Shown: piece after piece, positions 1-41,977 of the stretch
Layout: every line of letters starts with the position of its first letter
Numbering within the stretch: the stretch's first letter is position 1
Source: a virus
Direction: 5' to 3' (one strand)
IMG/VR virus record: IMGVR_UViG_3300045988_017181
Length of the DNA: 41,977 nt
Made by a program: the position numbers and the translations under genes
The notes under the pieces: model-generated
Seen by the model: only the letters and a program-made list of their open reading frames with translations
The model's database searches: none
What the model was told of the DNA's origin: nothing

Positions 1-55
1 GCTAGTGTCCTAGCTGTCGCTAGTGTCCTAGCTGTCGCTAGTGTCCTAGCTGTCG
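1..55. repeat. Three tandem copies of the 18-bp unit GCTAGTGTCCTAGCTGTC (+G). The same 55 bp recur at 41923..41977.
   Basis: Direct reading: bases 1-55 equal the last 55 bases of the window. Confidence 0.95.
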
Positions 56-198
56 TTCCATGCCCTGAACTATAGAGCACCCCCGAATCACCTGTCAAGC
101 CCTCAAGTGAAAAATACCGTAAACATGATATCCCCTCACCTAGCGTCCTGACTCACTCTTTATATAGGGGCTAGCTGTGGAGTCCTGTCGACTACCTA

Positions 199-420
199 AA
201 GGAGTACCAAAGGAGTACCAAAGGGTACCCCTAAAGGAGTATCAAAGGAGTACCAAAGGAGTATCAAAGGAGTATCAAAGGAGTACCAAAGGAGTATCAA
301 AGGAGTACCAAAGGAGTATCAAAGGAGTATCAAAGGGTACCCCTAAAGGAGTACCAAAGGAGTACCAAAGGAGTATCAAAGGGTACCAAAGGAGTACCAA
401 AGGAGTATCAAAGGGTACAA
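199..420. repeat. Tandem array of 20 units with an 11-bp period: 16 x AAGGAGTA(C/T)CA plus 4 AAGGGTACC-type variants
   Basis: Units counted directly at 199, 210, 234 ... 400. The listed + ORF 177..431 is just this repeat translated. Confidence 0.95.
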
Positions 421-492
421 AGCACAGATAATGTTTTACCCAAAGGTAAACAATTGATCTAGATCAAACCCCATATTGACCCAAATCAACCC

Positions 493-24769: not shown

Positions 24770-24864
24770 GCTAGCTATGCTAGCTGTGTCTGCTGTGCTA
24801 GTGTCCTAGCTGTGCTAGTGCCCTAGCTGTGCTAGTGTTCTAGCTGTGCTAGTGTTCTAGCTGT
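24770..24864. repeat. Array of 17-bp units GCTAGTG(T/C)(C/T)CTAGCTGT (4 good copies plus a degenerate leader) between portal and scaffold genes
   Basis: Copies at 24797, 24814, 24831 and 24848. The unit is nearly identical to the 18-bp terminal unit. The last copy encodes the portal C-terminus (AQLEH*). Confidence 0.9.
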
Positions 24865-26450
24865 GCTTCATTGACAGCCATCTGTGCACCTGCGTCAATA
24901 CCCTGTTGCTGGGCATACTGTTCCATAGCGGCCTGTTGTTCTGCCTGAAGTTCTTCAGGAGTCTTCACTAGACCCGTAGCATCAATATGAGCCGCCGCAA
25001 AAATCCTAGTAGCAAGATTACCAACGTTGAGAGCCTGTAGAAACTCAGGGAACTGTTGCATCAATTGCAAAGCCTGAGCTAGATTGTTAAGATCCTGTCC
25101 TCTACCAAGGGCATCAATACCCGTGATGATGGAGGGTTCAATCTCTGCAATACTCTCGTCAATCACAGGGAGCAACCCCTGAGATTGCATCTGATTGTAG
25201 ACACAGGCAACGAGAGGAAGCTGTAGCTCCTGAGACAGGAGAGAATAGACACCACCTAGGGTATCCTCAAGTTCACCTGCAACGTACCTAATCTCTTCTG
25301 CGGTAACTCTGTCTCTACCCACAGCACCACTCTGGACTGCAGAGTTCAAGAGGAACGCATAAGACAAACGAGACTCAATCTGTTGAGCAGTAGTGAGTAC
25401 CGTCTGCATGTCCATGCTCTTATTGAGTTGCATGGGAACAACGTCCTCCATACGACCCCTAACAAAGGCACCGTTCTCTGCCTTAGACAAAGCCCTGATG
25501 TTAGTCTGACAAGCAGGAGACACGAGATAGAGAACCTTAGAGGCAATCATGGAGATATCCACAATGCTCTTAGAGAGATTCTCAAGGGAGATAAGGTCGC
25601 CAAGGTAATCCTCAACAAAGGATCTACCGTAGTGTTCACCGTCCTTCTTATTGAATCTAAGGGGAATCCAAGGACTCTTGTTTGCAGGATAAGTCTGCTC
25701 ACTACCCGCAACAGGTTCGCCTTCAATCTCCTGATAGGATTCCCACTGATAGGTGTCTCCGCTAGCCACACGGTAAATGTGAGTATAGATGTCTACCTTT
25801 TCGTTGATAGTCGGTTCACCAGAATCAGAGAGAACAGACTGCATGGAATCAGGAAGACTACCACGGGAAACAGTGTCCTTAGCGACAATCTGAAGGACAT
25901 TGCCGATAGCGTCTCTCTGAACAGCGTACTCACGAAGAGTATAGCACCTCATGCCACCTTCAGCAGGAGGAAGGAACAGAAGTGCATTGCCTGCAATGAT
26001 AAGTTGCTTAATGGCTTCAAAAAGAGTCGGCCTAAGAGACTGAGACTCCATGTACTTAATCATCTGTTGTTCCATCATGGACAAACCGTATTCGATATTG
26101 TCCTTCAGCTGGTCATCAGCAGACTCATTAAGAGCTACAGTCGACTCCGCGTCCAACCCCAGTCTAAAGAAAGGTTGATTAGGAGGCAACAGAGAAAGAA
26201 GAAGCTTAGAGGCAAGATTATTAAGACCCCTAGCACCCACAGAATTGTAAGGAGTGGAATAGTTAGTACCACCATCATCAGACTCCTTAGGAAAGAGCAT
26301 AGGGATCGTGTAGGTTGCACACTTCTCTGCTCTCTGGGTGTATGGGTCTCTGTCTGTCGTGAGTTTGTCATAGGTCGTCTTAGCGCCTTCAAGAGGGATA
26401 TTTCCTGCGGTATGTTCACTAGTTGCCATTCCAACCGTCCCACCCATCAT
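24849..26450 (-). CDS. Portal (head-tail connector) protein (gp8-like)
   Basis: 533 aa. Position and size match T7 gp8. The true start may be the internal MATSEH. Confidence 0.85.
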   Translation of the reverse strand: MMGGTVGMATSEHTAGNIPLEGAKTTYDKLTTDRDPYTQRAEKCATYTIPMLFPKESDDGGTNYSTPYNSVGARGLNNLASKLLLSLLPPNQPFFRLGLDAESTVALNESADDQLKDNIEYGLSMMEQQMIKYMESQSLRPTLFEAIKQLIIAGNALLFLPPAEGGMRCYTLREYAVQRDAIGNVLQIVAKDTVSRGSLPDSMQSVLSDSGEPTINEKVDIYTHIYRVASGDTYQWESYQEIEGEPVAGSEQTYPANKSPWIPLRFNKKDGEHYGRSFVEDYLGDLISLENLSKSIVDISMIASKVLYLVSPACQTNIRALSKAENGAFVRGRMEDVVPMQLNKSMDMQTVLTTAQQIESRLSYAFLLNSAVQSGAVGRDRVTAEEIRYVAGELEDTLGGVYSLLSQELQLPLVACVYNQMQSQGLLPVIDESIAEIEPSIITGIDALGRGQDLNNLAQALQLMQQFPEFLQALNVGNLATRIFAAAHIDATGLVKTPEELQAEQQAAMEQYAQQQGIDAGAQMAVNEAQLEH

Positions 26451-27259: not shown

Positions 27260-27410
27260 TCCTCAGAGCCTTCTTGCCCTTGTTCTTCTTGTGTTCTGCA
27301 GTTTCTACAGCACCCATTTCAGGAGCCTCAGGTTCGAGTACAGGTTGCTCAATGGCAGGAGCCTGAACCTTAACCTCAGGAACCTTAGGTTTACTAAAGA
27401 GTCCACCCAT
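27216..27410 (-). CDS. gp6.7-like small virion protein
   Basis: MGGLFSKPKVPE... and ...KGKKALRI resemble T7 gp6.7 (FSPKIKTP, GRKGLKV). Paralogous in outline to 26487..26735. Confidence 0.5.
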   Translation of the reverse strand: MGGLFSKPKVPEVKVQAPAIEQPVLEPEAPEMGAVETAEHKKNKGKKALRIDYVGSGRGTNIPK

Positions 27411-27610
27411 CAGTTATCTCCATTCTGTTTGTCGTGTTTATTTCTAAGGTAGGTAACAACCTGTTGAATACCTAGAAGAGTCTCATTACTCTTTTCATAC
27501 CAAATCATCTTTCGAATGTCAAAGACATCCTCAAGTTTCTCAATGAGATCCTTAGGAACATAAGGAAACTCTTCTTCTTCTTCAACAACATTGTTTTCTT
27601 CTTTGTTCAT
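27410..27610 (-). CDS. Hypothetical protein (66 aa, gene 6.5 position)
   Basis: ORF with ATG at 27610. Its SD appears to be separated from the ATG by a 42-nt hairpin (see finding). Confidence 0.55.
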   Translation of the reverse strand: MNKEENNVVEEEEEFPYVPKDLIEKLEDVFDIRKMIWYEKSNETLLGIQQVVTYLRNKHDKQNGDN

Positions 27611-27977
27611 AGAAATTCGGCGCGGAAACCTCTGTCTTCAGACAGGGGAGGAAGCGCCGTCCTCCTTTCTAAGTTCGGTTAAATAGGTGCTTCTCTTTTC
27701 GAGAAGCGTTTGGCGGATACCCGCAGGTTCCGCTTACACGGCCCGAAGGCCTGTTGACATCCTTCGCCAATGTTGGAAGGGGTTTGGTGCCTGCAACACC
27801 GCTCCTACCTCTCAGAGCTTTTAATCACAGGCCGCAGAGCGTGGAACTAGGATGTACATCCCACGGTGCCTATACATTCCCAACCAACGTAGCGCCTCTC
27901 GAAAGAGGGGCGCTGAGGCTAGTCAATAAAGGCTCTTTCAAGCCTCTGCCTTTAGGCAGGGGTTATTGACGTCTTCC
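27611..27977. ncRNA. Unclassified GC-rich, highly structured, ORF-free element (~370 nt); functional strand unresolved
   Basis: At least 10 local helices (plus coordinates): 27618-23/27654-59 enclosing 27629-36/27641-48; 27689-95/27701-07; 27713-16/27721-24; 27740-43/27748-51; 27761-65/27776-80; 27786-89/27797-800; 27891-900/27905-14; 27922-29/27963-70 enclosing 27943-50/27955-62. An 8-bp long-range pair joins 27647-54 and 27973-80. No ORF over 20 codons on the gene strand. Confidence 0.6.
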
Positions 27978-28003
27978 TCCTACCTAGGACTATTGATTTA
28001 ATT
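27978..28003 (-). promoter_or_regulatory. Phage-type promoter variant (AATTAAATCAATAGTCCTAGGTAGGA) just after the exonuclease gene (phi6.5-like position)
   Basis: About 20/26 match to the local consensus. A second, more degenerate copy lies at about 28008..28035. Confidence 0.5.
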
Positions 28004-28033
28004 AAAAATAGCCCTAGGGGGTATTAGTATTGA

Positions 28034-28798
28034 TTAAAAAGGATTGTACTTCTTGGGTAGACCCTCAGATTCACTTAAAGGATAATCTTCATAGTGCAAG
28101 ATTCTAGCCATTGTTGCCTCTCTAATGGCATCCTCTTCAGTAAGACCCTGAGACTTGAAGGCTTTCAAAACCTCAGGCCACCATTCAGAATCAGGATGCC
28201 CATTAAGGAGCTTATTGGCTTTCACAGGGCCATAAGTGGGACACCCCTTATAGCCGTCTGTAACGTCCCCTACTAGGGTCTGATAGCACAGCCATTTCTT
28301 GGAGTCCTTCTCAGTGATGTTATGCAAGACATCATTACCGAAATCATAGAAGTAACCGGGGATTGTCTTGAAATCCTTGTCCATAGACACTGCGACACAA
28401 ATATCTTTATAGACAGGACTAGTGCAGTAGATACCCACAACATCATCAGCTTCAAGGTACTTGACTGTATGAGAAATGTAGGTTTCTTTAATCTTGTCTA
28501 CAAGACCTTTGTAACAACAAGGTTTACGATTAGATCGCCTATTGGACTTATAGTCAGGATTGTAGGCTTTCCTAAAGTTATCCTCATCGGAGAAACAGAA
28601 TACATAGGTAATCTCTTCGCCAACGAAATGCTTATTCAGCTTCTCATCAATAGCAATAAGCATGTCGGTAAAGTAATCCCATGCGTCATCTACTTCAGCA
28701 TGACAAGTCCAAAGACCATCACCCCAGTCGATATCCTTCTGGACAGCAGAGGATGCCTTAAAGGCTAGAATATCACCGTCTACAAAAGCATATCTCAT
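28034..28798 (-). CDS. 5'-3' exonuclease (T7 gp6-like, FEN family)
   Basis: MRYAFVDGDILAFKAS N-terminus with acidic clusters typical of the PIN/FEN fold. Synteny after the DNA polymerase. Confidence 0.8.
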   Translation of the reverse strand: MRYAFVDGDILAFKASSAVQKDIDWGDGLWTCHAEVDDAWDYFTDMLIAIDEKLNKHFVGEEITYVFCFSDEDNFRKAYNPDYKSNRRSNRKPCCYKGLVDKIKETYISHTVKYLEADDVVGIYCTSPVYKDICVAVSMDKDFKTIPGYFYDFGNDVLHNITEKDSKKWLCYQTLVGDVTDGYKGCPTYGPVKANKLLNGHPDSEWWPEVLKAFKSQGLTEEDAIREATMARILHYEDYPLSESEGLPKKYNPF

Positions 28799-29332: not shown

Positions 29333-31870
29333 TTAGTGACAATCGAACCAGTTGGCACCAATCTTGCCTTCGGTGTCCAACTGACAATTAAACTTAAAGA
29401 ACTCCTGAGTCTGTCTCATGGATTCCTGTGCAATTCGCACACAGTCTTCTGCAATCTCTTTTGTTCTGCAGGCAACCTGTACCTCATCCTTACCGTTTCC
29501 CATATTGCTACGGGTGTCGGACTATCTCTTTACAGCCTATTGGTATTAGCTGTAGTAGGCATTTCGAGACTAGGGGGATCTCACCCCTAGCCCCTACGGT
29601 TTACACCTAGTCTCTACACTTCCATTCTCGAATCCATTTGCACGCAGATGAAAACGAGACACCAAAGACTTCACCTAGCTTAGTACCTGTACACTTATAA
29701 AGTTTCCAATACTCCTTAGCTTTAGCCTTTCTATCAGCATATCTAGTGGAGTTATGCTCGACTTTATGATCGACGATCTTAACTAGCTCAAGGTGGCTAA
29801 GGTTACAACAGGCACGATTATGACACTCGTGATGAATCTCATAGCCTTCAGGGACTTCGCCATTAGCTTCTTCCCATACAAGTCTGTGAGCCATAATCAA
29901 GGGCTTTCTACCTTTACCCTTATACCTGTGATCTCTAATCCTTAGATAACCATCGTGATTCAGTCTATGTGATGTGGAGACTATGCAACCGTTTTGATCC
30001 TTAGTCAAGACCATAGGTTTACCACGCATAGTTCCTCCAATGTTTAGCTCGGGATTGCCCCAGAGGGGTTTCCCCGAATTAACCTACTTTAACGTGCACA
30101 ATGAAGTTTATGCACCCACGCCATCATGGCAAAGTCTCCGTCCCAACCATGCTTGTAGCCTGCTTTACGCATATTCTCCTCAACAAGACACACCCACTTC
30201 TTACAAATAAGGGCGCCTGCAGACTGCAGGATAGTGTTCAGAGCCGAGTGAGGGCTTCGCACATAAACAAGGCGGCGATCAAGCCCAAGAATATGGTGAG
30301 AAATATTAAGAGTAGGGCAATCAGGGTGGACACGTTTCTTCCATTTTACTTTTTGAGTGTTCCCAATCCATTCAGAGGACTCAACAAGAGCCTTATCAAT
30401 GGAACTACAGAGCTTCTTGTATGCAGGGACAGCCTTAAAGAATCTTTCCTTAAGAGCTTTGCCATCCTTAGCAGTGCCATTAATGACAGCTCCAAGTTTA
30501 CCGTCACCACCACCATAGAGCATGCAGTAGATCATGGTCTTCGCTTGGTCTCTCGTGGGAAGCCCTGCCATCTTCTGATTATGGGTGTGAATGTCACCCT
30601 CAAGGATTTCCTTTATATAAGCACCGTTGTCAAAAGGAAACAGGAAAGACCCAAAGCACCGAAGTTCCAAACCAGAAGCGTCGATACCTGCCTCAAACCA
30701 GCCTTTAGGAACTGTGAACAGAGACCTGCACTCCTTACCGTATGGAGACCTTCCTGCAGGAACTTGTGCAACATTAGGATATGAATGTGTTGCACGACCA
30801 GTAACAGCACCGTTAGGATTAACAGAACCGTGAATACGGTAGTATCCATCTTCATCTTCCTTCATAAGCTTAAGCCAAGCGTTGTCACCCTCAGCAAGCT
30901 GTGCGATACGCTTGTTAATCAGCAGGTACTCAAGGATCTTAGGTGTCAGAGGGATACCCATAGCAGACTGAAGGGTGTCTTCATCAACCTTAGGGGCACC
31001 AGTAGGTGTAACCTCAGTAGGCTCCCAACCTCTTTCCATAAGCACCTTAGCAATGTGACTACGGGAATTAGGATTGAATGTAACCTCCTCATACTGAGGA
31101 TAAGGAACGCCTGCTTTAATTCCTTTCTTAGCGTTATCTCGCTTGTAGATCTTGTCTCCCTTGTAGACAGTCCAAGAGCCTACCTCAGAGACAAGGCTTT
31201 CATAGATCTCCTGTCTCTTTGCAGAGAGTTCAGCATAGAGCTTTACTGCCGCATCTTTATCAAAGACAAACCCATTACGTTCCTGCTTAGCCATGACCCA
31301 AGCAATGTCATGCTCAAGCTGAATGGCCTTCAAAGGGTAACCCTTAGCCATCAGCTTATGGAACAACTTAAGGGTAACCACAACGTCCTGTTTGTTGTAC
31401 TCATACATTTCAGGAGTAAACTTGTCCCAAGCACCCTCATGTTCGCCATAGGTGCCCTTCAGTTCACCCATACGGTAACCATAAGCCTTCAGGCTGTGGG
31501 AACCATAGAGAGCCTTAGGGAGCCTACCAGAACGCATAAGACCAACGTCAGTGTCCTTGATATTCGAGTAGATCAAACGAGCAAGTACAAGAGTGTCAAT
31601 ACAGACATCTCGAACATCAAATGCAAACCTCTCCCCCTTGAGCTTCTTAAGAGCAGGGATGTCAAATTTGCAGATATTGTGACCAACGATGCTGTACCCA
31701 CTAGTACCATACTTATTCAAGGCATCGAAGAACTCATCAAGATCAGTGTAACCAGTGTACAAATCCGTATAAGAATCGTACAACCAACCACACCAAAACC
31801 TCTTGGTCGTATCAAGCAACCCATCAGTTTCAATATCGAACACAATAAATTTGTCTTTAATTGTCAGCAT
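29333..31870 (-). CDS. DNA polymerase (T7 gp5-like, family A), split: join(30110..31870, 29333..29488), ~638 aa
   Basis: Motif A GIDASGLELRC; motif B RDQAKTMIYCMLYGGG. The ORF breaks inside motif C (...MAWVH|KLHCAR*). The rest, DEVQVACRTKE...QLDTEGKIGANWFDCH*, matches the T7 C-terminus (HDEIQVGCRTEE...LLDTEGKMGPNWAICH) and lies 621 nt downstream. Confidence 0.9.
29489..30109 (-). mobile_element. Group I intron in the DNA polymerase gene (621 nt)
   Basis: P1: exon GTGCAT (30115..30110) pairs with GTGCAC (30099..30094), with a U-G at the splice site. P/Q-like TTAATTCGGGGAAAC / CAATCCCGAGC before the ORF; S-like AAAGAGATAGTCCG after it. The last nucleotide is G (29489). Confidence 0.8.
29607..30029 (-). 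CDS. Intron-encoded HNH homing endonuclease
   Basis: GYEIHHECHNRACCNLSHLELV...DH..H HNH motif. 140 aa, inside the intron. Confidence 0.85.
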   Translation of the reverse strand: MRGKPMVLTKDQNGCIVSTSHRLNHDGYLRIRDHRYKGKGRKPLIMAHRLVWEEANGEVPEGYEIHHECHNRACCNLSHLELVKIVDHKVEHNSTRYADRKAKAKEYWKLYKCTGTKLGEVFGVSFSSACKWIREWKCRD

Positions 31871-31878
31871 TTTCTATT

Positions 31879-31937
31879 CCTTAAATAGCCTTGCTTATTT
31901 CTTAAATAGCTTTGCTTATTTCTTAAATAGCTTTGCT
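31879..31937. repeat. About 2.8 copies of the 21/22-bp unit CTTAAATAGC(C/T)TTGCTTATTT immediately upstream of the DNA polymerase start
   Basis: Direct reading, between the stop of 31947..32201 and the ATG at 31870. Confidence 0.9.
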
Positions 31938-31946
31938 AAAAAGATC

Positions 31947-32201
31947 CTACAGGAACACCAAAAGGAAAGCTACTGTAGTAGAGATCACCCACATTGCAAT
32001 CACGTAGATCTTGAATACCAGAACGCTGAGGTCTCTGTACTCAGCAGAATACTCATGCTCAGAGGCTAGAAGCACAGGAGCTATAGGAAGCAACAGGATA
32101 ATCCAAAAGCATGAGAGGACACGATCTGTAAGAGACATGTCCTTGTCGTAATACCAGAAAGTAAGTGGGTAAATAAACTCTTTAAAACTCATTTTCTTCA
32201 T
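31947..32201 (-). CDS. Small membrane protein (84 aa)
   Basis: MKKMSFKEF... start overlaps the primase-helicase stop. Two or three hydrophobic helices. The upstream part of the track ORF overlaps the primase gene and is rejected. Confidence 0.5.
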   Translation of the reverse strand: MKKMSFKEFIYPLTFWYYDKDMSLTDRVLSCFWIILLLPIAPVLLASEHEYSAEYRDLSVLVFKIYVIAMWVISTTVAFLLVFL

Positions 32202-33813
32202 CCTCAAAGGGGCATTCAGGGTCTGCCTCATAGTCAGAGAGCCTGCCAGTGTTCTGGTCATAGTAGAGATAACCACTGACACCCGTAAGACCACAGAAGC
32301 GGTTCTTAAGGACTCTAATGGTCAACACATTAGGATTGTCACCCTGTTGGTTCCTCTCAAGACCAATAACCATGTCAGAGAGCTGTGCAATAGCTCCAGA
32401 CCCTCTAAGTTGACTAAGGGATACCTGTGCACCCTCTTCATGTCCCTTCTTCTCAGGACGCTTAAGGTGAGACACTACGAACATTGTAGCACCTGTCTCT
32501 TCCACAAGAGAACGAAGGTTAGTCATAAGCTTGTCAATGGCTTTACGTTCACCACCATCCTCATCAGTGTCCATACCAGAGACCACAATGGAGATATGAT
32601 CAAGGAAGATGCGCTTGCATCCTAGGGACACAATCATATACCTGAGCTTACTAAGCAGATTGCCTGAATCAAGAGACCCAAAGTGGTCGTACAGGAAGAA
32701 TTTTCCGTTCCCAATAGTTTCCACAAAAGCTCGGCTTCGTTCATCTTCATCTGTACCCTCAGGATCGAGTATGAGTCGCTTGTTAAGATGAATCGACATG
32801 AGTTCCATCCCAGTTTTGCGAGTAGATTCTTCAAGAGCAACAATTCCGCATAGTTCTCCCCTGTGAACACCAAAGTAGTATTCGAGTTCTCTGAGTATTG
32901 TGGACTTTCCCATTCCGCTTCCACTTGTGAAGACATACAGTTCACCATGTCTAGCTCCTTTAGTTTTCTCTTGAAGTGCCTTCCAAGGATACTCCACGGA
33001 ATCCTTAAGGTCATCAATGTCGGTTACACACTTCTCGTATAGGTCAGTACCTGCAACAATCCCATCAGGTCTGTAAGGCTTGGCATTCCAAACAGCCTGA
33101 ATAACATCACTGCCTTTACCCTCAAGTAGGCACTCATTGGGATCCTTCAAAGGAAGGTTAGCAATGAACGCCTTACCTGCAGGCAACACCTTGGCACACT
33201 CTTCACAAGCCTTACGACCGGGTTCATCCATGTCAAACATGAGAACCACTTCTTCAAACTTGTCAAGATACTCAAGGTTATCTTCAATAGCCTTCTTAGC
33301 CGCTTGAGCCCCATTAGGAATGCTCACAACAGGCCACTTGTTAGACTGAAGCTGACTCACAGTAAGACAGTCAATCTCACCCTCGGTAATTACAATCTTC
33401 TTACCAGAAGACCACAACTGAGAACCAAAGAGTCGATTAGAGATCTTACCAAGGACTGCAAAGGTCTTATCAGGAAACCTAAGTTTCTGACCTACGATAT
33501 TACCGTTGTCATCATAGTAGTTGGCTACTTGACAGGGAGTTCCCTTGTAGTAACCCACCATGTACTTGAATTTAGAACAGGTGTCCTGATTGATCTTCCT
33601 TGCAGTCAGGTAAGACACATCAAGATCGTCAAGAGGAATACATTCCTTACACATCACACTCTCCTTTTTCTTCTGGATTACTTCCCCATCAGCTCTAAAA
33701 TACGAACTACAAGAAAAACAATACCTATGGCCATCACTAAAGACTCCACAGGCGTCAGAGGAGCCACACTTAGGACAAGGTTCATGATAAAGAAACGTAC
33801 CCTCTTGATTCAT
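32182..33813 (-). CDS. Primase-helicase (T7 gp4-like)
   Basis: Zn motif CPKCGSSDACGVFSDGHRYCFSC, a TOPRIM region, and helicase Walker A GSGMGKST. Confidence 0.9.
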   Translation of the reverse strand: MNQEGTFLYHEPCPKCGSSDACGVFSDGHRYCFSCSSYFRADGEVIQKKKESVMCKECIPLDDLDVSYLTARKINQDTCSKFKYMVGYYKGTPCQVANYYDDNGNIVGQKLRFPDKTFAVLGKISNRLFGSQLWSSGKKIVITEGEIDCLTVSQLQSNKWPVVSIPNGAQAAKKAIEDNLEYLDKFEEVVLMFDMDEPGRKACEECAKVLPAGKAFIANLPLKDPNECLLEGKGSDVIQAVWNAKPYRPDGIVAGTDLYEKCVTDIDDLKDSVEYPWKALQEKTKGARHGELYVFTSGSGMGKSTILRELEYYFGVHRGELCGIVALEESTRKTGMELMSIHLNKRLILDPEGTDEDERSRAFVETIGNGKFFLYDHFGSLDSGNLLSKLRYMIVSLGCKRIFLDHISIVVSGMDTDEDGGERKAIDKLMTNLRSLVEETGATMFVVSHLKRPEKKGHEEGAQVSLSQLRGSGAIAQLSDMVIGLERNQQGDNPNVLTIRVLKNRFCGLTGVSGYLYYDQNTGRLSDYEADPECPFEDEENEF

Positions 33814-33818
33814 CTTTT

Positions 33819-34661
33819 TTAATAACCCAGTTTACAACGAAGGCTCTCCCAACCGTACAGGTTTCTATGGTACCACATGTCTCCTGCCCAAATACAGGGG
33901 TGCTCCATGGGTGACATATGACCTGCGTCAAGAAGCCTTCGTGCCAGCTTCTTGTCCTTATGCTCGTCAGGACAAGATCCGTCGTGATTGTTGTAAGACA
34001 CTCTAGCACAGCGTGCAGAGGAAATAAGCATGAGATCATTAATGAGGACTTCAGAAGAACTAAACGAGTTCATGCAGTGCTCATCAACTTCCTCTTGAGT
34101 GATAAAGGGAAGACTAACATACTTCCCACAAATATGGTAGACACTAATGATATTATTGCCTACCTTGTCCATCTCACCCTTAATGGCCCTTGCAAGATCC
34201 TGCATCTCAGGCTGTGCATCACTGGCGAGCCTAAGATGCAGGAAGTTATCCCACTCAGTAGCAGTCACAATCACGTTAATGTACTGGAAGGGCTCAAGGA
34301 TTCGATTGACGTGTTGCTTATGGACACCAAGAGCAACCATGGATTCCGCAACAGCTACTGCATTGTCTACAGCTTTAAGCCAGAGATCCTTAAAAGACTC
34401 ATAGGTACCCTCAGAAGCCTCAACAGTACCAACCATGCCAGATTGATTCATATAGACGTGAGAAGGGATAAAGGGGTCATTGCGCACCTGTTCAATAACC
34501 TTAGCTACAGGGATAGCACGGGAGCTACTTGCATTGCGACTAAAGACCCTGTGAGTCATGAATTCACTATGGATCATCCTAGGATACCTAAGGACGAACG
34601 TATAGAGATTATCCTGATGGCAGATGCAAAGGGCTTCACTAGATCCAACTTTAGTAGTCAT
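33819..34661 (-). CDS. thyX: Flavin-dependent thymidylate synthase (ThyX-like)
   Basis: THRVFSRNASSSR fits the ThyX signature RHR-x7-S-x-R (first R replaced by T). Start set at the ATG at 34661 (MTTKVGSS), because the longer track ORF runs through the tRNA-Leu gene. Confidence 0.7.
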   Translation of the reverse strand: MTTKVGSSEALCICHQDNLYTFVLRYPRMIHSEFMTHRVFSRNASSSRAIPVAKVIEQVRNDPFIPSHVYMNQSGMVGTVEASEGTYESFKDLWLKAVDNAVAVAESMVALGVHKQHVNRILEPFQYINVIVTATEWDNFLHLRLASDAQPEMQDLARAIKGEMDKVGNNIISVYHICGKYVSLPFITQEEVDEHCMNSFSSSEVLINDLMLISSARCARVSYNNHDGSCPDEHKDKKLARRLLDAGHMSPMEHPCIWAGDMWYHRNLYGWESLRCKLGY

Positions 34662-34797
34662 TATCTTCCTCATCATAGTCGTCGTCTTCATCCTCGTCGT
34701 CTTCTTCATCAAGGGACTCAAGATATTCCTGATACTCGTCTTCCCAACGAGCTTCCCAATCAGATTCCATTCGATCAAGTTCCTTCTGAGTCTGCAT
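34651..34797 (-). CDS. Small, highly acidic protein (48 aa), below the ORF-track cutoff
   Basis: ATG at 34797 after AGAGAGG. MQTQKELDRMESDWEARWEDEYQEYLESLDEEDDEDEDDDYDEEDNDY*. Its stop overlaps the thyX ATG (ATGACTACTAA). Confidence 0.55.
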   Translation of the reverse strand: MQTQKELDRMESDWEARWEDEYQEYLESLDEEDDEDEDDDYDEEDNDY

Positions 34798-34823
34798 AAT
34801 TGCCTCTCTTTAAAAATAAAATG

Positions 34824-34911
34824 TGGTGCCCTAGGAGGGAATCGAACCCTCACGAGCCTTGCTTCTCCACTGATTCTAATTCAGTTGTGTATACCATTTC
34901 ACCACTAGGGC
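34824..34911 (-). tRNA. tRNA-Leu (anticodon UAG), type II with a long variable arm; CCA encoded
   Basis: Manual cloverleaf: acceptor GCCCTAG/CTAGGGC; anticodon stem ACTGA/TCAGT with loop ATTAGAA; T arm GAGGG-TTCGATT-CCCTC; 17-nt variable region. Confidence 0.85.
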
Positions 34912-35044: not shown

Positions 35045-35121
35045 TGGTCTCTCCTACAGGATTCGAACCTGTGACCGTATGCTTAGAAGGCATATGCTCT
35101 ATCCAACTGAGCTAAGGAGAG
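35045..35121 (-). tRNA. tRNA-Arg (anticodon UCU); CCA encoded
   Basis: Manual cloverleaf: acceptor CTCTCCT/AGGAGAG; D arm GCTC-AGTTGGATA-GAGC; anticodon stem TATGC/GCATA with loop CTTCTAA; T arm ACAGG-TTCGAAT-CCTGT. Confidence 0.9.
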
Positions 35122-37925: not shown

Positions 37926-37992
37926 AGCTAAAGGCTAGCTTGCTAGCTAAAGGCTAGCTTGCTAGCTAAAGGCTAGCTTGCTAGCTAAAGGC
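37926..37992. repeat. 3.5 copies of the 19-bp unit AGCTAAAGGCTAGCTTGCT straddling the RNAP stop codon
   Basis: Copies at 37926, 37945 and 37964, plus a partial copy at 37983. The partial copy encodes the RNAP C-terminal AFS*. Confidence 0.9.
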
Positions 37993-40617
37993 GTACATGG
38001 ACTCCTTGACTCGCTCAAGATCAAGGTTTCCCTTAGAGGGAATCTCAGGGAGCTTGTCGACCATCTTAGGAGACAAAAGGTTTTCAACGTGGTCATGAAG
38101 ATCCTGCAGTACATCATTCTTACTGTAGGTATCTACAAACACTTCCCTAACGGTCGTAAACATGATGTCACCATGTCCCGCAGGTGCTCCATAGGAGTCA
38201 TGAATCATCGCAAAGGACTTGACACCCTTGTCTACACAAGAGCACACCGTAAGCATAAGGTGGGAGGCATCCATGCTATGGACGTAGTTGGGTGCAATAC
38301 CCTGCTTCTGCTTTCGGGTGTCAATCTCGGGGGTACTCTCGTACACCACGGGATTGATAGAGGCACCTTCCTCAATCTGGCTGTCTTCCTTGAATGGCTC
38401 CTTGACTCGAATGGTTCCAGTAGTGAAAGTCCTGAGTTGCTTGAGCACAACCTTGTTGTACTTCTGTTTTACAGGGAATCCCGCAGGGGTAATCCAATAG
38501 GTAGGCATACTTTGGCCGTTGATGTCCTTGTCCTGAGCGAGGAGACCGCTTGCAACCTGAAGCCAACCCATAGCCTCCACAGCTTTCACTACGACCCCTT
38601 GCAGGGCTTCCCAGATCAATCCAGCCATGTACCTAGCGGACTGGCTAGGGCGACTGAAGGACGTGGGATTCTTTGAAAGAGCAGGGTAAATAGTGTCTTC
38701 TAAAACCTGTTCGGCAAAGCCAAATTTACTAGAGCCATAGCAAAGCGTCATGGTGCTACGCTTAGTCACCTTACGGGTAACTCCGTGCTTGAGCCATTCC
38801 GTGGCCATACTACGGGTGCCCTTCTTCAGGTAATCGTCACCGTCTTCAGTTTTAGCCATGGTGTCATCGGTACCATTGTCATAGTCCTTTTTAAGGAGTC
38901 CTATGACCTTAGTAGCGACAATGCCATAGATGTCATGAACATGATCGTCAGGCATGAGGTTGACGGCTTCCCCACCTACTTCGTCCCGAAGCATCGCAGA
39001 GAAATGCTGTAAGCCAGAGCAAGAGCCATCAAAGGCAATCGGGAGGTGAGACACGTAAGAGTCACCCTTATCCAGATAGTCCGACCACTCAAAGCAGAAC
39101 GCAAGGAATTCCCAAGGAGAGTCCGTCTCAGTCCATCGGAGATCCTGCAAGGGATCCTTGGCAATAGACAGAATCATGTCGGTGTTCTCATAGACCCAAG
39201 CAATACGCTCTTCAAAGGGTTTCTTGTCAAGGCCGTAGCAGTTAGCACCCTGAAAGGCCAACCACGTGTGACCATTCTCGCCCAACGGGACACCTTCGGC
39301 AAACTCAATGAGGGCTTTAGTAAAGTCATTACCTTGAGGGCTCAACTGGGTCAAGGGATAGACACGACCACGGAAATCAAGGTTGTGGGGGAAATAGATT
39401 TCCATGTCGTCCTTGTAGGTGTTTGCCAGTGCGAGGACACCATTGACAAGGTAACGCTTGCTCTTACGCTTATTGTCGTCTTGATAGTAGTGCACCATAG
39501 CACTTCGCCAATCACGCTGGACCTCCTCGTTAGTATCTGCCTCTACAGGCCTCACAGGAGGCTCCGCAGGGGTCGCAGAGGGCATCTCAAGGCCTTCAGG
39601 AATGTGGGCCCAAGAGCAAACCTCGTTAGCCACGTCGAGCACTCTACGGTTGACCCTCCAAGCCGTAGACTGGATGGCATTGACGGCCTTATACACGTTA
39701 GGCATGTCAACCTCATCGTAGAGCTGTGCACACTCCTTAGAGGGCATTCTAACAAGCTGTATGGGTTTCTTAAGGTTAATCAGGTAACCACCATCAAAAG
39801 GGGTAGACCACGGCTTAGGAGGAATTACCATTGGCCTATTTTGGAACATGAGACTAGCCGTTTCCTCATCCTCGTGTTCCAAGTACGTCAACACGTCGGG
39901 GTCAAGACAGAAAATGTAGTGCACGTTTTTGTTGTCACTCATAGTTTTCTCAAGGGCACCTAAGCCAGTAGACACGATGAAAATGTCTACCAACTTAAGA
40001 CCTACTTGGACCCTGTTAGCATTACCCCACTTGTTCCATCTCTTGAGTCTCTTTTCGTTTGCTAGGATTTTTTCTTTGTTTTCAACATAGCGCTTTTTGA
40101 ACTGCATGGAAATACGCTTATCAAGCCCTGCATTAAAGCGACTGAGCTCTTTCTTATCCATGGTTGCAACTACCATCTTGAACCGAAGTTCATCCTCAAT
40201 AGCCTCACCAATTGCAGAGGACAATTTGGTTAAAGACACGATTCCAAGGGAATTTTCAATGATGGTCCTAATCGCAATGAATGCGATTTCTTCGGAAGAC
40301 AAAGACCGAATAAGGGATGCCATCACATGACGCTTACCGGGCTTACCCGTGTCTACTTCCTTAAACCACTTGTCAAGGGCCTTAGTCATGACAGGGATGG
40401 CTTCACTGATAAGGACTCTAGAGGCACCCATATTACCAATAGTACCGCTTTCAATGGCCTTATTACGCTTAGACATGAAAGCATTGAAGGCATTTTCCTT
40501 GCTTTCAAGTTCTAATTCAATTTCCCTGTCTACACGGGCTTTGCCGTATTTAAGACAAAGATCATCATATTCATTTTCACCATCAATTCTAAAACTATTC
40601 AATTTATCATAAGACAT
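37981..40617 (-). CDS. Single-subunit DNA-directed RNA polymerase (T7 gp1-like)
   Basis: DGSCSGLQHFSAMLRDEVGG, IHDSYGA and a C-terminal ...YAFS. 878 aa. Confidence 0.95.
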   Translation of the reverse strand: MSYDKLNSFRIDGENEYDDLCLKYGKARVDREIELELESKENAFNAFMSKRNKAIESGTIGNMGASRVLISEAIPVMTKALDKWFKEVDTGKPGKRHVMASLIRSLSSEEIAFIAIRTIIENSLGIVSLTKLSSAIGEAIEDELRFKMVVATMDKKELSRFNAGLDKRISMQFKKRYVENKEKILANEKRLKRWNKWGNANRVQVGLKLVDIFIVSTGLGALEKTMSDNKNVHYIFCLDPDVLTYLEHEDEETASLMFQNRPMVIPPKPWSTPFDGGYLINLKKPIQLVRMPSKECAQLYDEVDMPNVYKAVNAIQSTAWRVNRRVLDVANEVCSWAHIPEGLEMPSATPAEPPVRPVEADTNEEVQRDWRSAMVHYYQDDNKRKSKRYLVNGVLALANTYKDDMEIYFPHNLDFRGRVYPLTQLSPQGNDFTKALIEFAEGVPLGENGHTWLAFQGANCYGLDKKPFEERIAWVYENTDMILSIAKDPLQDLRWTETDSPWEFLAFCFEWSDYLDKGDSYVSHLPIAFDGSCSGLQHFSAMLRDEVGGEAVNLMPDDHVHDIYGIVATKVIGLLKKDYDNGTDDTMAKTEDGDDYLKKGTRSMATEWLKHGVTRKVTKRSTMTLCYGSSKFGFAEQVLEDTIYPALSKNPTSFSRPSQSARYMAGLIWEALQGVVVKAVEAMGWLQVASGLLAQDKDINGQSMPTYWITPAGFPVKQKYNKVVLKQLRTFTTGTIRVKEPFKEDSQIEEGASINPVVYESTPEIDTRKQKQGIAPNYVHSMDASHLMLTVCSCVDKGVKSFAMIHDSYGAPAGHGDIMFTTVREVFVDTYSKNDVLQDLHDHVENLLSPKMVDKLPEIPSKGNLDLERVKESMYAFS

Positions 40618-40765
40618 AGGGGTTACCTTTAGTTATATCTATAGATCTTTTATATTCTTTTATATAGGGTTATATAGGTGATGATGTAGGATATTACCCA
40701 TAGTTAAACTATAGACTCCTGTGGTTTCCTTTAGATTTCCTTAGGAGTCTATAGCCTCTTTCACC

Positions 40766-40791
40766 CTCTCCCTAGGAGTATGGATTTTATT
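40766..40791 (-). promoter_or_regulatory. Phage-type promoter copy (exact consensus), 149 nt upstream of the RNAP ATG
   Basis: Exact 26-mer. The downstream 5'UTR contains a perfect 12-bp inverted repeat CTATAGACTCCT/AGGAGTCTATAG (40709..40720 and 40743..40754). Confidence 0.6.
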
Positions 40792-40808
40792 AAATCCTCG
40801 TGTCTCCT

Positions 40809-40895
40809 CTAACCATTGATTTTACCTTTCTCAACACACTCATCGTATTCATTTTCACCATCAATTCTAAAACTATTCAATTTATCATAAGACAT
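40809..40895 (-). CDS. 28-aa in-frame fusion mini-ORF created by the duplication (RNAP residues 1-17 fused to the last 11 residues of the DUF3310-like protein; the junction D is common to both)
   Basis: ATG at 40895 with the same RBS context as the RNAP gene. Reads MSYDKLNSFRIDGENEYDECVEKGKING*. Confidence 0.4.
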   Translation of the reverse strand: MSYDKLNSFRIDGENEYDECVEKGKING

Positions 40896-41043
40896 AGGGG
40901 TTACCTTTAGTTATATCTATAGATCTTTTATATTCTTTTATATAGGGTTATATAGGTGATGATGTAGGATATTACCCATAGTTAAACTATAGACTCCTGT
41001 GGTTTCCTTTAGATTTCCTTAGGAGTCTATAGCCTCTTTCACC

Positions 41044-41069
41044 CTCTCCCTAGGAGTATGGATTTTATT
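41044..41069 (-). promoter_or_regulatory. Phage-type promoter copy (exact consensus), second copy from the 278-bp duplication
   Basis: Identical to 40766..40791, offset by 278 bp. Confidence 0.6.
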
Positions 41070-41086
41070 AAATCCTCGTGTCTCCT

Positions 41087-41371
41087 CTAACCATTGATTT
41101 TACCTTTCTCAACACACTCATCGTTGACATAGATGGTACCGAATGACTCGAAAGTACGCAACCATTCGGCATAAGTCAGGTATTTGTTTCTGTCTTTCTC
41201 TGCGGATTCACCCTCTTTGCGTCCTGCTCTGAACGCATATTTAATCATATTGCCCTTAAGGAATCCAATGAATTCCTCATGAGATAATACATTGAGCATC
41301 AATTCAATAGGCTGGACAGCTCCCATGTAATGGGTACTTGTTTCAGGCTTTCCACTGTTAATTTCTTCCAT
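41087..41371 (-). CDS. DUF3310-like protein (94 aa)
   Basis: HY....QPIE......F..GN.IKYAFRAGRK.....D.NKY pattern. Start moved to the ATG at 41371 (AAGGAG RBS), because the longer track ORF overlaps the upstream small ORF. Confidence 0.6.
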   Translation of the reverse strand: MEEINSGKPETSTHYMGAVQPIELMLNVLSHEEFIGFLKGNMIKYAFRAGRKEGESAEKDRNKYLTYAEWLRTFESFGTIYVNDECVEKGKING

Positions 41372-41859: not shown

Positions 41860-41922
41860 GCTAGAGATGCTAGAGATCTAGCGGTTGCTAGAGATCTAGC
41901 GGTTGCTAGAGATCTAGCGGTT
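41860..41922. repeat. 3.5 copies of the 18-bp unit GCTAGAGATCTAGCGGTT
   Basis: Partial copy at 41860, full copies at 41869, 41887 and 41905. Abuts the terminal GCTAGTGTCCTAGCTGTC array. Confidence 0.95.
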
Positions 41923-41977
41923 GCTAGTGTCCTAGCTGTCGCTAGTGTCCTAGCTGTCGCTAGTGTCCTAGCTGTCG
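41923..41977. repeat. Three copies of GCTAGTGTCCTAGCTGTC (+G), identical to 1..55
   Basis: Direct reading. Confidence 0.95.

What the first reader, a model, noticed from the sequence alone, without database searches (positions are those of the whole stretch)
27611..28003. About 370-nt GC-rich, hairpin-dense, ORF-free element after a phi6.5-like promoter: candidate novel structured RNA
Between the exonuclease stop and the next gene lies a segment visibly GC-richer than its surroundings. It has no ORF above about 20 codons on the gene strand. It contains at least ten local helices, several nested, and an 8-bp long-range pairing (GGAGGAAG at 27647-54 with CTTCCTCC at 27973-80) that would close the whole domain onto the predicted transcript 5' end. 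Three hairpins share the arm pair CCTCTGYC/GRCAGGGG or CCTCTC/GAGGGG. Strand evidence conflicts. In those three hairpins the imperfect position is a G-U wobble in plus sense and a C-A mismatch in minus (gene) sense. One of them also has a GAAA tetraloop in plus sense only. In contrast, GGCC-UUCG-GGCC (27740-51) is a classic C(UUCG)G loop only in minus sense. The promoter (27978..28003) and the SD-bridging hairpin at the 3' end also argue for minus sense. I compared it by eye with tmRNA, RNase P, 6S, SRP, group I P/Q/R/S elements and hammerhead cores and found no convincing match. It is far larger than a T7-type RNase III site. It could be a processed ncRNA, a long regulatory leader for the late operon, or an antisense RNA gene.
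Basis: partly seen in the sequence, partly recalled or inferred. Interest (0 to 1): 0.8.

Follow-up and report, generated by a model that had tools for sequence, protein, structure and literature searches.

The report
Transposon guide RNA inserted in phage
The structured, GC-rich segment is not a new RNA: it is a 360-bp gene-less copy of a bacterial IS200/IS605-type transposon that carries the known HEARO/omega guide RNA of the IscB nuclease and recently jumped from a Sutterella-like gut bacterium into this T7-like phage, between a gene's ribosome-binding site and its start codon.

Summary
In detail: window 27611-27970 is GC-rich (53.9% against 44.3% for the window), has no real ORF, and folds much better than shuffles (z = -5.1 on the gene strand).

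It is a known family. Rfam RF02033 (HEARO, the IscB omega guide RNA) matches 27970..27753 (-) end to end at 139 bits (gathering 83, E 5e-29).

All 43 close phage relatives fetched have the uninterrupted site TAGGAGGAAGAC|ATGAAC. The segment is therefore a precise 360-bp insertion with no target duplication.

A 99%-identical 1583-bp copy in a bacterial-looking contig carries an IscB gene (RRXRR + HNH, frameshifted in that contig). The phage copy lacks 1223 bp of it and keeps the whole omega RNA, the last 23 iscB codons and both hairpin-bearing transposon ends.

The same mini-element, with the identical deletion junction, occurs in 15 human-gut metagenome loci. Related copies are multicopy in Sutterella MAGs. 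Every copy is followed by ATGAA, often a gene's own start codon.

A phage-promoter-like motif directly upstream would give a 14-nt guide that matches the empty site of 42 of 43 sibling phages. Homing between phages via host IscB is possible but untested.

Verdict: new member of a known kind; moderate interest.

The parts
27984..28005 (-). Phage RNA-polymerase promoter-like motif (TTAATTAAATCAATAGTCCTA|G). It belongs to the phage, not to the insert. The start is predicted at G27984 by analogy with T7.
   Evidence: It is one of six gene-strand copies of AATAAAATCMATACTCCTAGGGAGAG. It is conserved in nearly all of the 43 relatives. The genome encodes a T7-type RNA polymerase. The start site is inferred.
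27971..27984 (-). Phage sequence GGTAGGAGGAAGAC. It is the original Shine-Dalgarno sequence plus spacer of the 66-aa gene. It now occupies the guide position immediately 5' of the omega RNA scaffold.
   Evidence: The empty site in relatives reads ...TAGGTAGGAGGAAGAC|ATGAAC. IscB guides lie 5' of the scaffold, outside the transposon. The 14-mer plus ATGAA is exact in 42 of 43 relatives.
27753..27970 (-). HEARO RNA, the IscB omega RNA scaffold core. Its first base (27970) is also the transposon end.
   Evidence: Rfam RF02033: 139 bits, gathering 83, E 4.9e-29, model positions 1-211 of 211. RNAalifold on 9 copies shows compensatory changes. 24 different upstream flanks all begin at this base.
27710..27752 (-). 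3' extension of the omega RNA beyond the Rfam model. It has two hairpins: GGCCUUCGGGCC (27751..27740) and GCGGAACCUGCGGGUAUCCGC (about 27733..27713).
   Evidence: It is retained in every mini-element up to position 261 of the full element. Both hairpins keep pairing through double changes. Meers et al. note that RF02033 lacks downstream structural elements and that the mean omega RNA length is 242 bp.
27709..27710 (.). Internal deletion junction. 1223 bp, almost the whole iscB gene, are missing relative to the full-length copy.
   Evidence: Window 27970..27710 equals L001 3088..2828 at 99.6% identity, and 27709..27611 equals L001 1604..1506 at 98%. The exact junction 29-mer is present in 15 gut metagenome loci.
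27638..27709 (-). Remnant of the last 23 codons plus the stop codon of iscB (TLLEKRSTYLTELRKEDGASSPV*).
   Evidence: tblastn with the intact IscB of L096 hits only 27709..27641, and nothing else in the window.
27611..27660 (+). The other transposon end (the left end in the transposase's sense). It holds the subterminal hairpin CCTCTGTC-TTCA-GACAGGGG (27629-27648) nested in the stem CGGCGC/GCGCCG (27618-27623 / 27654-27659).
   Evidence: ssDNA fold. It is conserved in all copies. It resembles the hairpin at the opposite end, 27943-27962.
27943..27962 (+). Subterminal hairpin of the omega RNA-side end (CCTCTGCC-TTTA-GGCAGGGG). The same bases form the first inner stem of the omega RNA on the minus strand.
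   Evidence: The T.G position matches that of the hairpin at the other end.
27606..27610 (-). ATGAA, the target-adjacent motif (TAM). Here it is also the start codon plus two bases of the 66-aa gene.
   Evidence: ATGAA follows the element in all 16 distinct 3' flanks found. It occurs only once in the empty site. DtIsrB has an NTGA TAM.
27410..27610 (-). 66-aa phage gene of unknown function. The insert separated it from its Shine-Dalgarno sequence by 360 bp.
   Evidence: No PHROG match and no Pfam match above threshold.

Best explanation
Window 27611-27970 is a non-autonomous, PATE-like member of the IS200/IS605 transposon family of the IscB type. It keeps the complete omega RNA (HEARO) gene, the last 23 codons of iscB and both hairpin-bearing ends, and it has lost the nuclease gene.

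Shown:
- It is a precise, duplication-free insertion in front of ATGAA.
- It is nearly identical to copies in gut bacteria.
- The mini-element already existed in bacteria in this deleted form.

Inferred:
- It entered the phage during infection of a Sutterella-like host. It was moved in trans by a host Y1 TnpA transposase that acts on the single-stranded hairpin ends, with the window plus strand as the active strand.
- In the phage it is transcribed with the late genes from the phage promoter 14 nt upstream. That would give an RNA with 5' GGUAGGAGGAAGAC followed by the omega scaffold.
- This RNA can act only with an IscB protein supplied by the host. With it, it would direct cleavage of the uninterrupted site (guide match plus ATGAA), as in the 'cut-and-copy' retention and homing model for IS200/IS605 elements.
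- For the phage the insert is most likely a selfish passenger, probably mildly costly, and not a phage regulatory RNA.
For: RNA family and associated protein:
- Rfam HEARO hit over the full model, 139 bits against a gathering score of 83.
- Related copies also score above gathering, and 22 of 72 predicted pairs show compensatory changes.
- The full-length 99% copy L001 has RRXRR (E 1.7e-41) and HNH domains behind the RNA.
- The intact homologue in L096 matches solved IscB structures at E about 1e-38 to 6e-40.

Insertion:
- Clean 1223-bp deletion relative to the full-length copy.
- 43 of 43 close relatives have the empty site ...GGAGGAAGAC|ATGAAC.
- Phages with an identical exonuclease protein exist both with and without the insert.

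Mobility and origin:
- 24 different 5' flanks and 16 different 3' flanks, with ATGAA invariant after the element.
- The exact junction 29-mer occurs in 15 gut metagenome loci. The best, L112, is 99.4% identical over all 360 nt.
- An exact 28-mer of the end is found in 12 loci of three Sutterella MAGs.
- A related phage contig carries the mini-element at a different ATGAA, the primase/helicase start codon.

Architecture:
- Meers et al. report that HEARO is the IscB omega RNA, that it is bounded by the right end, that the guide lies outside the element, that transcription must start outside it, and that gene-less PATE-like elements often carry omega RNAs for use in trans.
Against: - No TnpA gene was looked for or found in the host loci.
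- No expression data exist for either strand.
- The IscB gene in the closest full-length copy (L001) is frameshifted in that contig.
- The predicted 14-nt guide is shorter than the 15-16 nt effective guide reported for IscB.
- The 8-bp complementarity to the element's CUUCCUCC could sequester the guide.
- The host assignment rests on MAG labels. The phage is 44% GC, against about 55-65% for the bacterial contexts.
Confidence: 0.88

Rival explanations
1. Phage-versus-phage RNA-guided homing. The phage promoter makes an omega RNA whose guide matches the empty site of sibling phages. The host's IscB, loaded with it, cuts co-infecting siblings that lack the insert. Repair from the insert-bearing genome then copies the element, or the competitors are simply destroyed, so the insert gains (and perhaps gives) a competitive advantage.
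For: - A promoter-like motif ends 14 nt before the scaffold.
- The 14-mer plus TAM is exact in 42 of 43 relatives and is interrupted in the window.
- The insert is polymorphic among near-identical phages.
- The presumed host lineage carries IscB genes with the same scaffold.
- Non-restorative homing into co-infecting phages or plasmids is considered possible in the literature.
- The same genome already carries a group I intron with a GIY-YIG endonuclease.
Against: - The insertion was found in only one lineage. The junction is absent from the viral and JGI metagenome collections, so there is no sign of a sweep.
- The guide is predicted to be only 14 nt.
- IscB expression during infection is unknown.
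- T7-like phages often degrade host DNA and shut off host gene expression.
Confidence: 0.15
2. The segment has been co-opted by the phage as a cis-acting leader for the late operon, acting in RNA stability, processing or translational control. The terminal hairpin would bridge the internal AAGGAGG (27674..27668) to the ATG at 27610.
For: - The strong inner hairpin (27659..27618) would bring AGGAGG to about 8 nt from the AUG.
- The downstream gene has lost its own SD, yet the phage persists. An identical contig is present in an independent ENA assembly record.
Against: - The segment is absent from all 43 relatives.
- It is 99% identical to bacterial copies, so there has been no time for adaptation.
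- The AAGGAG motif is ordinary iscB coding sequence and is also present in the full-length L096 copy.
- In the MFE structure the SD is itself paired.
Confidence: 0.05
3. Assembly chimera. The bacterial repeat was spliced into the phage contig by the assembler.
For: - Chimeric-looking joins through this repeat do occur in metagenome contigs. L110 runs phage - element - bacterial thrC-like DNA, and L103 mixes flanks.
Against: - Both junctions fall exactly at the element's ends and at its invariant ATGAA target. The phage sequence continues on both sides with no loss or gain of a base, which an assembler artefact would not produce.
- The same structure is present in ENA contig L115.
Confidence: 0.03

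Closest known systems
HEARO RNA (Rfam RF02033), the omega RNA of IscB (OMEGA systems)
   Same: - Full-length covariance-model match well above the gathering score.
- The same nested stems.
- The 5' end coincides with the transposon end, with a variable guide just upstream.
- A 3'-side TAM of the NTGA type.
- The near-identical full-length copy is followed by an RRXRR + HNH (IscB) gene.
   Different: - No IscB gene follows it here or anywhere else in the phage genome.
- It sits in a virulent T7-like phage behind a phage-polymerase promoter, not in a bacterial chromosome.
PATE-like, gene-less IS200/IS605 elements (palindrome-associated transposable elements; noted for G. stearothermophilus by Meers et al.)
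   Same: - Short, with no protein gene.
- Keeps both subterminal hairpin ends and an omega RNA that needs a nuclease supplied in trans.
- Multicopy, with varied flanks.
- No target duplication.
   Different: - It is of the IscB (HEARO) type.
- A 23-codon iscB remnant shows how it arose.
- The ATGAA target often makes it land between a gene's SD and its start codon.
IsrB omega RNA (DtIsrB)
   Same: Related scaffold architecture and a related TAM (NTGA).
   Different: The associated protein in this family has an HNH domain, so it is IscB, not IsrB.
Group I intron and free-standing homing endonucleases of phages
   Same: - A selfish insert that is polymorphic among close phages.
- Its nuclease would recognise the uninterrupted allele.
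   Different: - Specificity would come from an RNA guide.
- The nuclease is not encoded by the phage.
- Mobility to new sites is by a single-strand transposase.
T7 RNase III processing sites and phage late-operon leaders
   Same: Intergenic, structured and downstream of a phage promoter.
   Different: It is about 10 times larger, absent from relatives, and bacterial in origin.

Membership tests
HEARO / IscB omega RNA (RF02033) | Covariance-model score at or above Rfam's gathering threshold over the whole model | tested here: met
   139 bits against 83, E 4.9e-29, model positions 1-211 of 211, not truncated.
HEARO / IscB omega RNA (RF02033) | Base pairs maintained by compensatory changes among homologues | tested here: met
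   RNAalifold on 9 copies: 72 pairs, 22 with double changes that keep the pair. The sequences are closely related, so this is supportive rather than independent proof.
HEARO / IscB omega RNA (RF02033) | Located immediately upstream of, and co-oriented with, an IscB ORF (RRXRR/RuvC + HNH) | tested here: not met
   Only the last 23 codons remain in the window. The feature is met in the 99% identical full-length copy L001 and in L096. The window copy is therefore an orphan derivative.
HEARO / IscB omega RNA (RF02033) | The 5' end of the scaffold is the transposon boundary, with a copy-specific guide upstream | tested here: met
   24 distinct upstream flanks all abut GTCAATAACCCC. The empty site in relatives confirms the boundary at 27970/27971.
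HEARO / IscB omega RNA (RF02033) | A conserved TAM adjoins the guide match in the empty site | tested here: met
   ATGAA follows all 16 distinct 3' ends. The empty site reads guide|ATGAA.
HEARO / IscB omega RNA (RF02033) | The RNA is expressed, binds IscB and guides DNA cleavage | not testable with these tools
   No transcriptome or biochemistry is available.
IS200/IS605 family, non-autonomous (PATE-like) | Precise insertion without target-site duplication next to a short conserved motif | tested here: met
   The occupied site compared with 43 empty sites shows no base gained or lost. TTCAT lies on the plus strand 5' of the end.
IS200/IS605 family, non-autonomous (PATE-like) | Subterminal imperfect hairpins at both ends | tested here: met
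   Hairpins at 27629-27648 and 27943-27962 have similar arms and the same T.G position. They are conserved in all copies.
IS200/IS605 family, non-autonomous (PATE-like) | Multiple copies at different sites in a genome | tested here: met
   At least 8 loci in one Sutterella MAG, including four 362-bp minis.
IS200/IS605 family, non-autonomous (PATE-like) | A Y1 (HUH) TnpA transposase in the same host able to act on these ends | not tested
   No TnpA search was made. Meers et al. report that only about 1.5% of iscB genes lie near a tnpA.

The most novel reading that the evidence does not exclude
A virulent T7-like phage carries a nuclease-less omega RNA transposon placed so that the phage's own promoter makes a guide RNA against the uninterrupted allele of its sibling phages. 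Using the host's IscB, the element would home between co-infecting phages or exclude competitors. That would be an RNA-guided analogue of phage homing endonucleases, with the nuclease borrowed from the host.
Probability: 0.15. Interest if true: 0.7.

Novelty: new member of a known kind. Interest (0 to 1): 0.35.

Why it matters
- It removes a false lead: the 'novel structured RNA' is the known HEARO/omega RNA.\n- It gives a natural, datable transposition of an IscB-type mini-element from a bacterium into a lytic phage. That links the uncultured phage to a Sutterella-like host.\n- It shows that this element family targets ATGAA, often the start codon of a gene and in the gene's orientation. That placement guarantees transcription of the guide.\n- It offers a concrete system for testing whether OMEGA guide RNAs can drive homing between phage genomes using a nuclease supplied in trans. 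The system comprises phages with and without the insert, a defined 14-16-nt target and a known TAM.

Tried and rejected
1. Scans for the phage-element junction 26-mer in JGI metagenome contigs and IMG/VR found nothing. The only other copy found is an identical ENA contig.\n\n2. An exact look-up of the 66-aa protein found nothing on record.\n\n3. Weinberg et al. 2009 (the original HEARO paper) and Altae-Tran et al. 2021 are not held in the library. What I say about them rests on later papers that cite them.\n\n4. I considered whether minis evolved an SD (AAGGAGG) to rescue translation of the downstream gene. I rejected this as an adaptation because the full-length L096 copy has AAGGAG in the same iscB codons.\n\n5. 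I considered whether the 8-bp GGAGGAAG/CTTCCTCC pairing is a designed closing helix. I rejected this because the two halves have independent origins and the pairing is in neither the MFE nor the centroid structure.\n\n6. I considered whether the third look-alike hairpin is a third transposase site. I rejected this because its sequence is variable among copies.\n\n7. The weak Rfam hits at E > 1 (snoRNAs, RAGATH-32, Pedo-repair, STAXI) are chance matches.\n\n8. Contig OLFS01000189.1 looks like phage - mini - bacterial DNA - mini - phage. I could not tell a chimeric assembly from a composite element.

Full report
**1. The observation.**
- The window is a complete T7-like phage genome. All the genes identified lie on the minus strand: a single-subunit RNA polymerase (37981-40617), primase/helicase, DNA polymerase, exonuclease (28034-28798), head-tail connector and major head protein.
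- Between the exonuclease stop and the next gene (27610..27410, 66 aa) lie 423 nt.
- The inner 360 nt are 53.9% GC, against 44.3% for the window and about 41% for the flanks.
- The minus-strand RNA from 27984 to 27611 folds to -150.9 kcal/mol. Shuffles give -122.5 +/- 5.5, so z = -5.1. The plus strand gives z = -3.8.
- The quoted motifs are at the stated coordinates.
- One detail is off: the gene strand has a 33-codon TTG ORF. It has no support as a gene.

**2. Identity of the RNA.**
- A scan of the whole window against Rfam 15 gives a gathering-level match to RF02033 (HEARO) at 27970..27753 on the minus strand. It scores 139 bits against a gathering score of 83, E 4.9e-29, and covers model positions 1-211 of 211 (repeated locally).
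- HEARO is the non-coding RNA found upstream of iscB. It is the omega RNA that guides the IscB nuclease (Meers et al.; Aliaga Goltsman et al.; review PMC13565253).
That result is obtained.

**3. The segment is an insertion.**
- IMG/VR holds 43 phages whose exonuclease is 96-99% identical in protein sequence.
- In every one of them the sequences that flank 27611-27970 in the window are adjacent...TAGGTAGGAGGAAGAC|ATGAACAAAG....
- The segment is therefore a precise 360-bp insertion with no target duplication. It lies between the Shine-Dalgarno sequence and the ATG of the 66-aa gene.
- Contigs that encode the identical exonuclease protein exist with the insert (L115, 100% identical to the window over 3.8 kb) and without it (L116, L117).
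- The phage-element junction was not found in the IMG/VR or JGI metagenome collections. The insertion is rare and probably recent.

**4. What was inserted.**
- GenBank MT835856.1 (human faeces; GC-rich, bacterial-looking genes) holds a 1583-bp element. Its first 261 nt are 99.6% identical to window 27970..27710, and its last 99 nt are 98% identical to 27709..27611.
- The 1223 bp missing from the phage copy encode a protein with an RRXRR domain (E 1.7e-41) and an HNH domain. It is split by a frameshift in that contig.
- An intact 422-aa homologue in a Sutterella MAG (L096) matches solved IscB structures (7XHT, 7UTN and others) at E about 1e-38 to 6e-40.
- In the window only the last 23 codons of iscB survive (27709..27641, plus the stop codon). 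No other IscB-like sequence exists in the genome.
  - a 43-nt extension of the omega RNA with two hairpins, including the UUCG one;
  - the iscB tail;
  - the other transposon end.
- Meers et al. remark that RF02033 lacks downstream structural elements and that IscB omega RNAs average 242 bp. This fits the 261-nt unit kept here.
- In an alignment of nine copies, RNAalifold predicts 72 pairs, and 22 keep pairing through double changes. These include both extra hairpins.

**5. A family of mini-elements.**
- The deletion did not happen in the phage. The exact 29-nt deletion junction occurs in 15 human-gut metagenome loci. One (L112) is 99.4% identical over all 360 nt, in a 56% GC context.
- One Sutterella MAG has four 362-bp minis of the same design at 88-89% identity. 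Two IMG/VR contigs have minis with other internal break points. All of them keep positions 1-261.
- An exact 28-mer of the omega RNA end occurs in 13 loci of the species-level genome set. Twelve of these are in three uncultured Sutterella MAGs, and many lie at contig ends, as expected for a repeat.
- The upstream flank differs in each of 24 distinct insertion sites, and all 24 abut GTCAATAACCCC. All 16 distinct downstream flanks begin with ATGAA.
- The two ends carry similar hairpins (27629-27648 and 27943-27962) with the same T.G position on the plus strand.
- These are the hallmarks of IS200/IS605 elements. The gene-less form corresponds to the PATE-like elements that Meers et al. describe as often encoding omega RNAs for use in trans.
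[quoted passage not shown] The RNA is therefore read from the strand opposite to the one on which, by analogy with IS608, the transposase would recognise the hairpins. That last step is inferred.

**6. Target choice.**
- ATGAA is a TAM of the NTGA type known for DtIsrB.
- In this family it is often a real start codon. In 7 of 11 reconstructed empty sites the ATG is the first possible start of the downstream ORF. Five of those ORFs have 96-597 codons, one is the window's 66-codon gene, and one (L106) runs off its contig after 15 codons. Several begin with signal-peptide-like sequences.
- 11 of 24 upstream flanks carry an SD-like 4-mer at -16..-4, against 13% for all ATGAA sites in the same loci (binomial P about 9e-5).
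- A related T7-like phage (contig OLFS01000189.1; 88% nucleotide identity to window 30110-33817) carries the mini-element at a different site, exactly in front of the ATGAA start of its primase/helicase gene.
- Insertion in the gene's own orientation fits two points from Meers et al.: omega RNA synthesis depends on transcription entering from outside the element, and iscB elements are biased towards the orientation of the upstream gene.

**7. How it probably works here.**
- Shown: the phage has six gene-strand copies of a promoter-like motif, AATAAAATCMATACTCCTAGGGAGAG. One of them ends just upstream of the insert.
- Inferred: by analogy with T7 promoters, transcription would start at G27984. 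That would give 5' GGUAGGAGGAAGAC (14 nt) followed directly by the scaffold.
- Shown: this 14-mer plus ATGAA is present, uninterrupted, in 42 of 43 sibling phages. In the window the TAM position is occupied by GTCAA.
- Inferred: with IscB supplied by the host, the RNA could direct cutting of empty sites. Those are either the phage's own site after excision ('restorative' homing) or the sites of co-infecting siblings ('non-restorative' homing, considered possible).
- Against: reported effective IscB guides are 15-16 nt. There are no expression data. No spread of the insert is seen.
- I therefore regard the insert as a selfish passenger (confidence about 0.88 for identity and origin) and give the phage-phage homing reading about 0.15.
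- The insertion separates the 66-aa gene from its SD. A hairpin-bridged internal AAGGAGG might substitute, but that motif is ordinary iscB coding sequence.

**8. Verdict.**
- The sequence features are real, but the interpretation as a novel RNA is not supported.
- It is a new member of a known kind: an orphan HEARO/omega RNA on a PATE-like IS200/IS605 mini-element, found in a lytic phage.
- Its value lies in three things: host linkage (a Sutterella-like bacterium), the start-codon targeting of the family, and a testable natural set-up for RNA-guided homing between phages.

Noticed in passing
window 2750-2964 (-), with ORF 2139-2720 (-): Rfam group I intron (53.5 bits, gathering 50). It is followed by an ORF with GIY-YIG and I-HmuI NUMOD-like domains. 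It lies next to the C-terminal part of the T7-type terminase (1453-2109), so the terminase gene appears to be interrupted by an intron with a homing endonuclease.
   Followed up: partly
L100 and L110 (contig OLFS01000189.1, 63 kb): A related T7-like phage carries the same mini-element directly before the primase/helicase start codon. One copy is followed by at least 5.4 kb of 63-69% GC bacterial DNA whose first bases equal the flank of the full-length copy in MT835856.1. This is either a chimeric assembly through the repeat or a composite element.
   Followed up: partly
window 40562-41117: An exact 278-bp tandem duplication upstream of the RNA polymerase gene. Each copy contains a promoter-like motif.
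   Followed up: no
window 1-73 and 41869-41977; also 24792-24876: 18-nt repeat arrays (GCTAGTGTCCTAGCTGTC) lie at both ends of the window and are probably terminal repeats. A related 17-nt array lies just upstream of the connector gene.
   Followed up: no
window 187-428 and 491-918: An array of 11-nt units (AAAGGAGTAYC) and repeats of CTGTGGATAAC near the left end.
   Followed up: no
window 34824-34911 (-) and 35045-35121 (-): Two tRNA genes, Leu(TAG) and Arg(TCT), lie next to a ThyX-like ORF (33819-34853), and the Leu gene overlaps the start of that ORF as called.
   Followed up: no
window 5698-7830 (-): An NrdD-like anaerobic ribonucleotide reductase gene, consistent with a strictly anaerobic gut host.
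   Followed up: no
L104 (39% GC) and L086 (IMG/VR, 52 kb, 58% GC): Further mini-element copies occur in other phage-like contexts. L104 has a PHROG exonuclease and L086 has a Sak4-like/phrog_1366 gene. In both, the element again lies directly before an ATGAA-initiated ORF.
   Followed up: partly
L083 and L084 (IMG/VR): Only the first 42 nt of the element (the end hairpin) are shared. The sequence then diverges completely, so this may be a different element that uses the same transposon end.
   Followed up: no
L115 270-692 (= window about 29607-30029, -): A 140-aa ORF between the DNA polymerase and exonuclease genes has an HNH_3 domain. It is absent from relative L117, so it is probably another free-standing homing endonuclease.
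   Followed up: no
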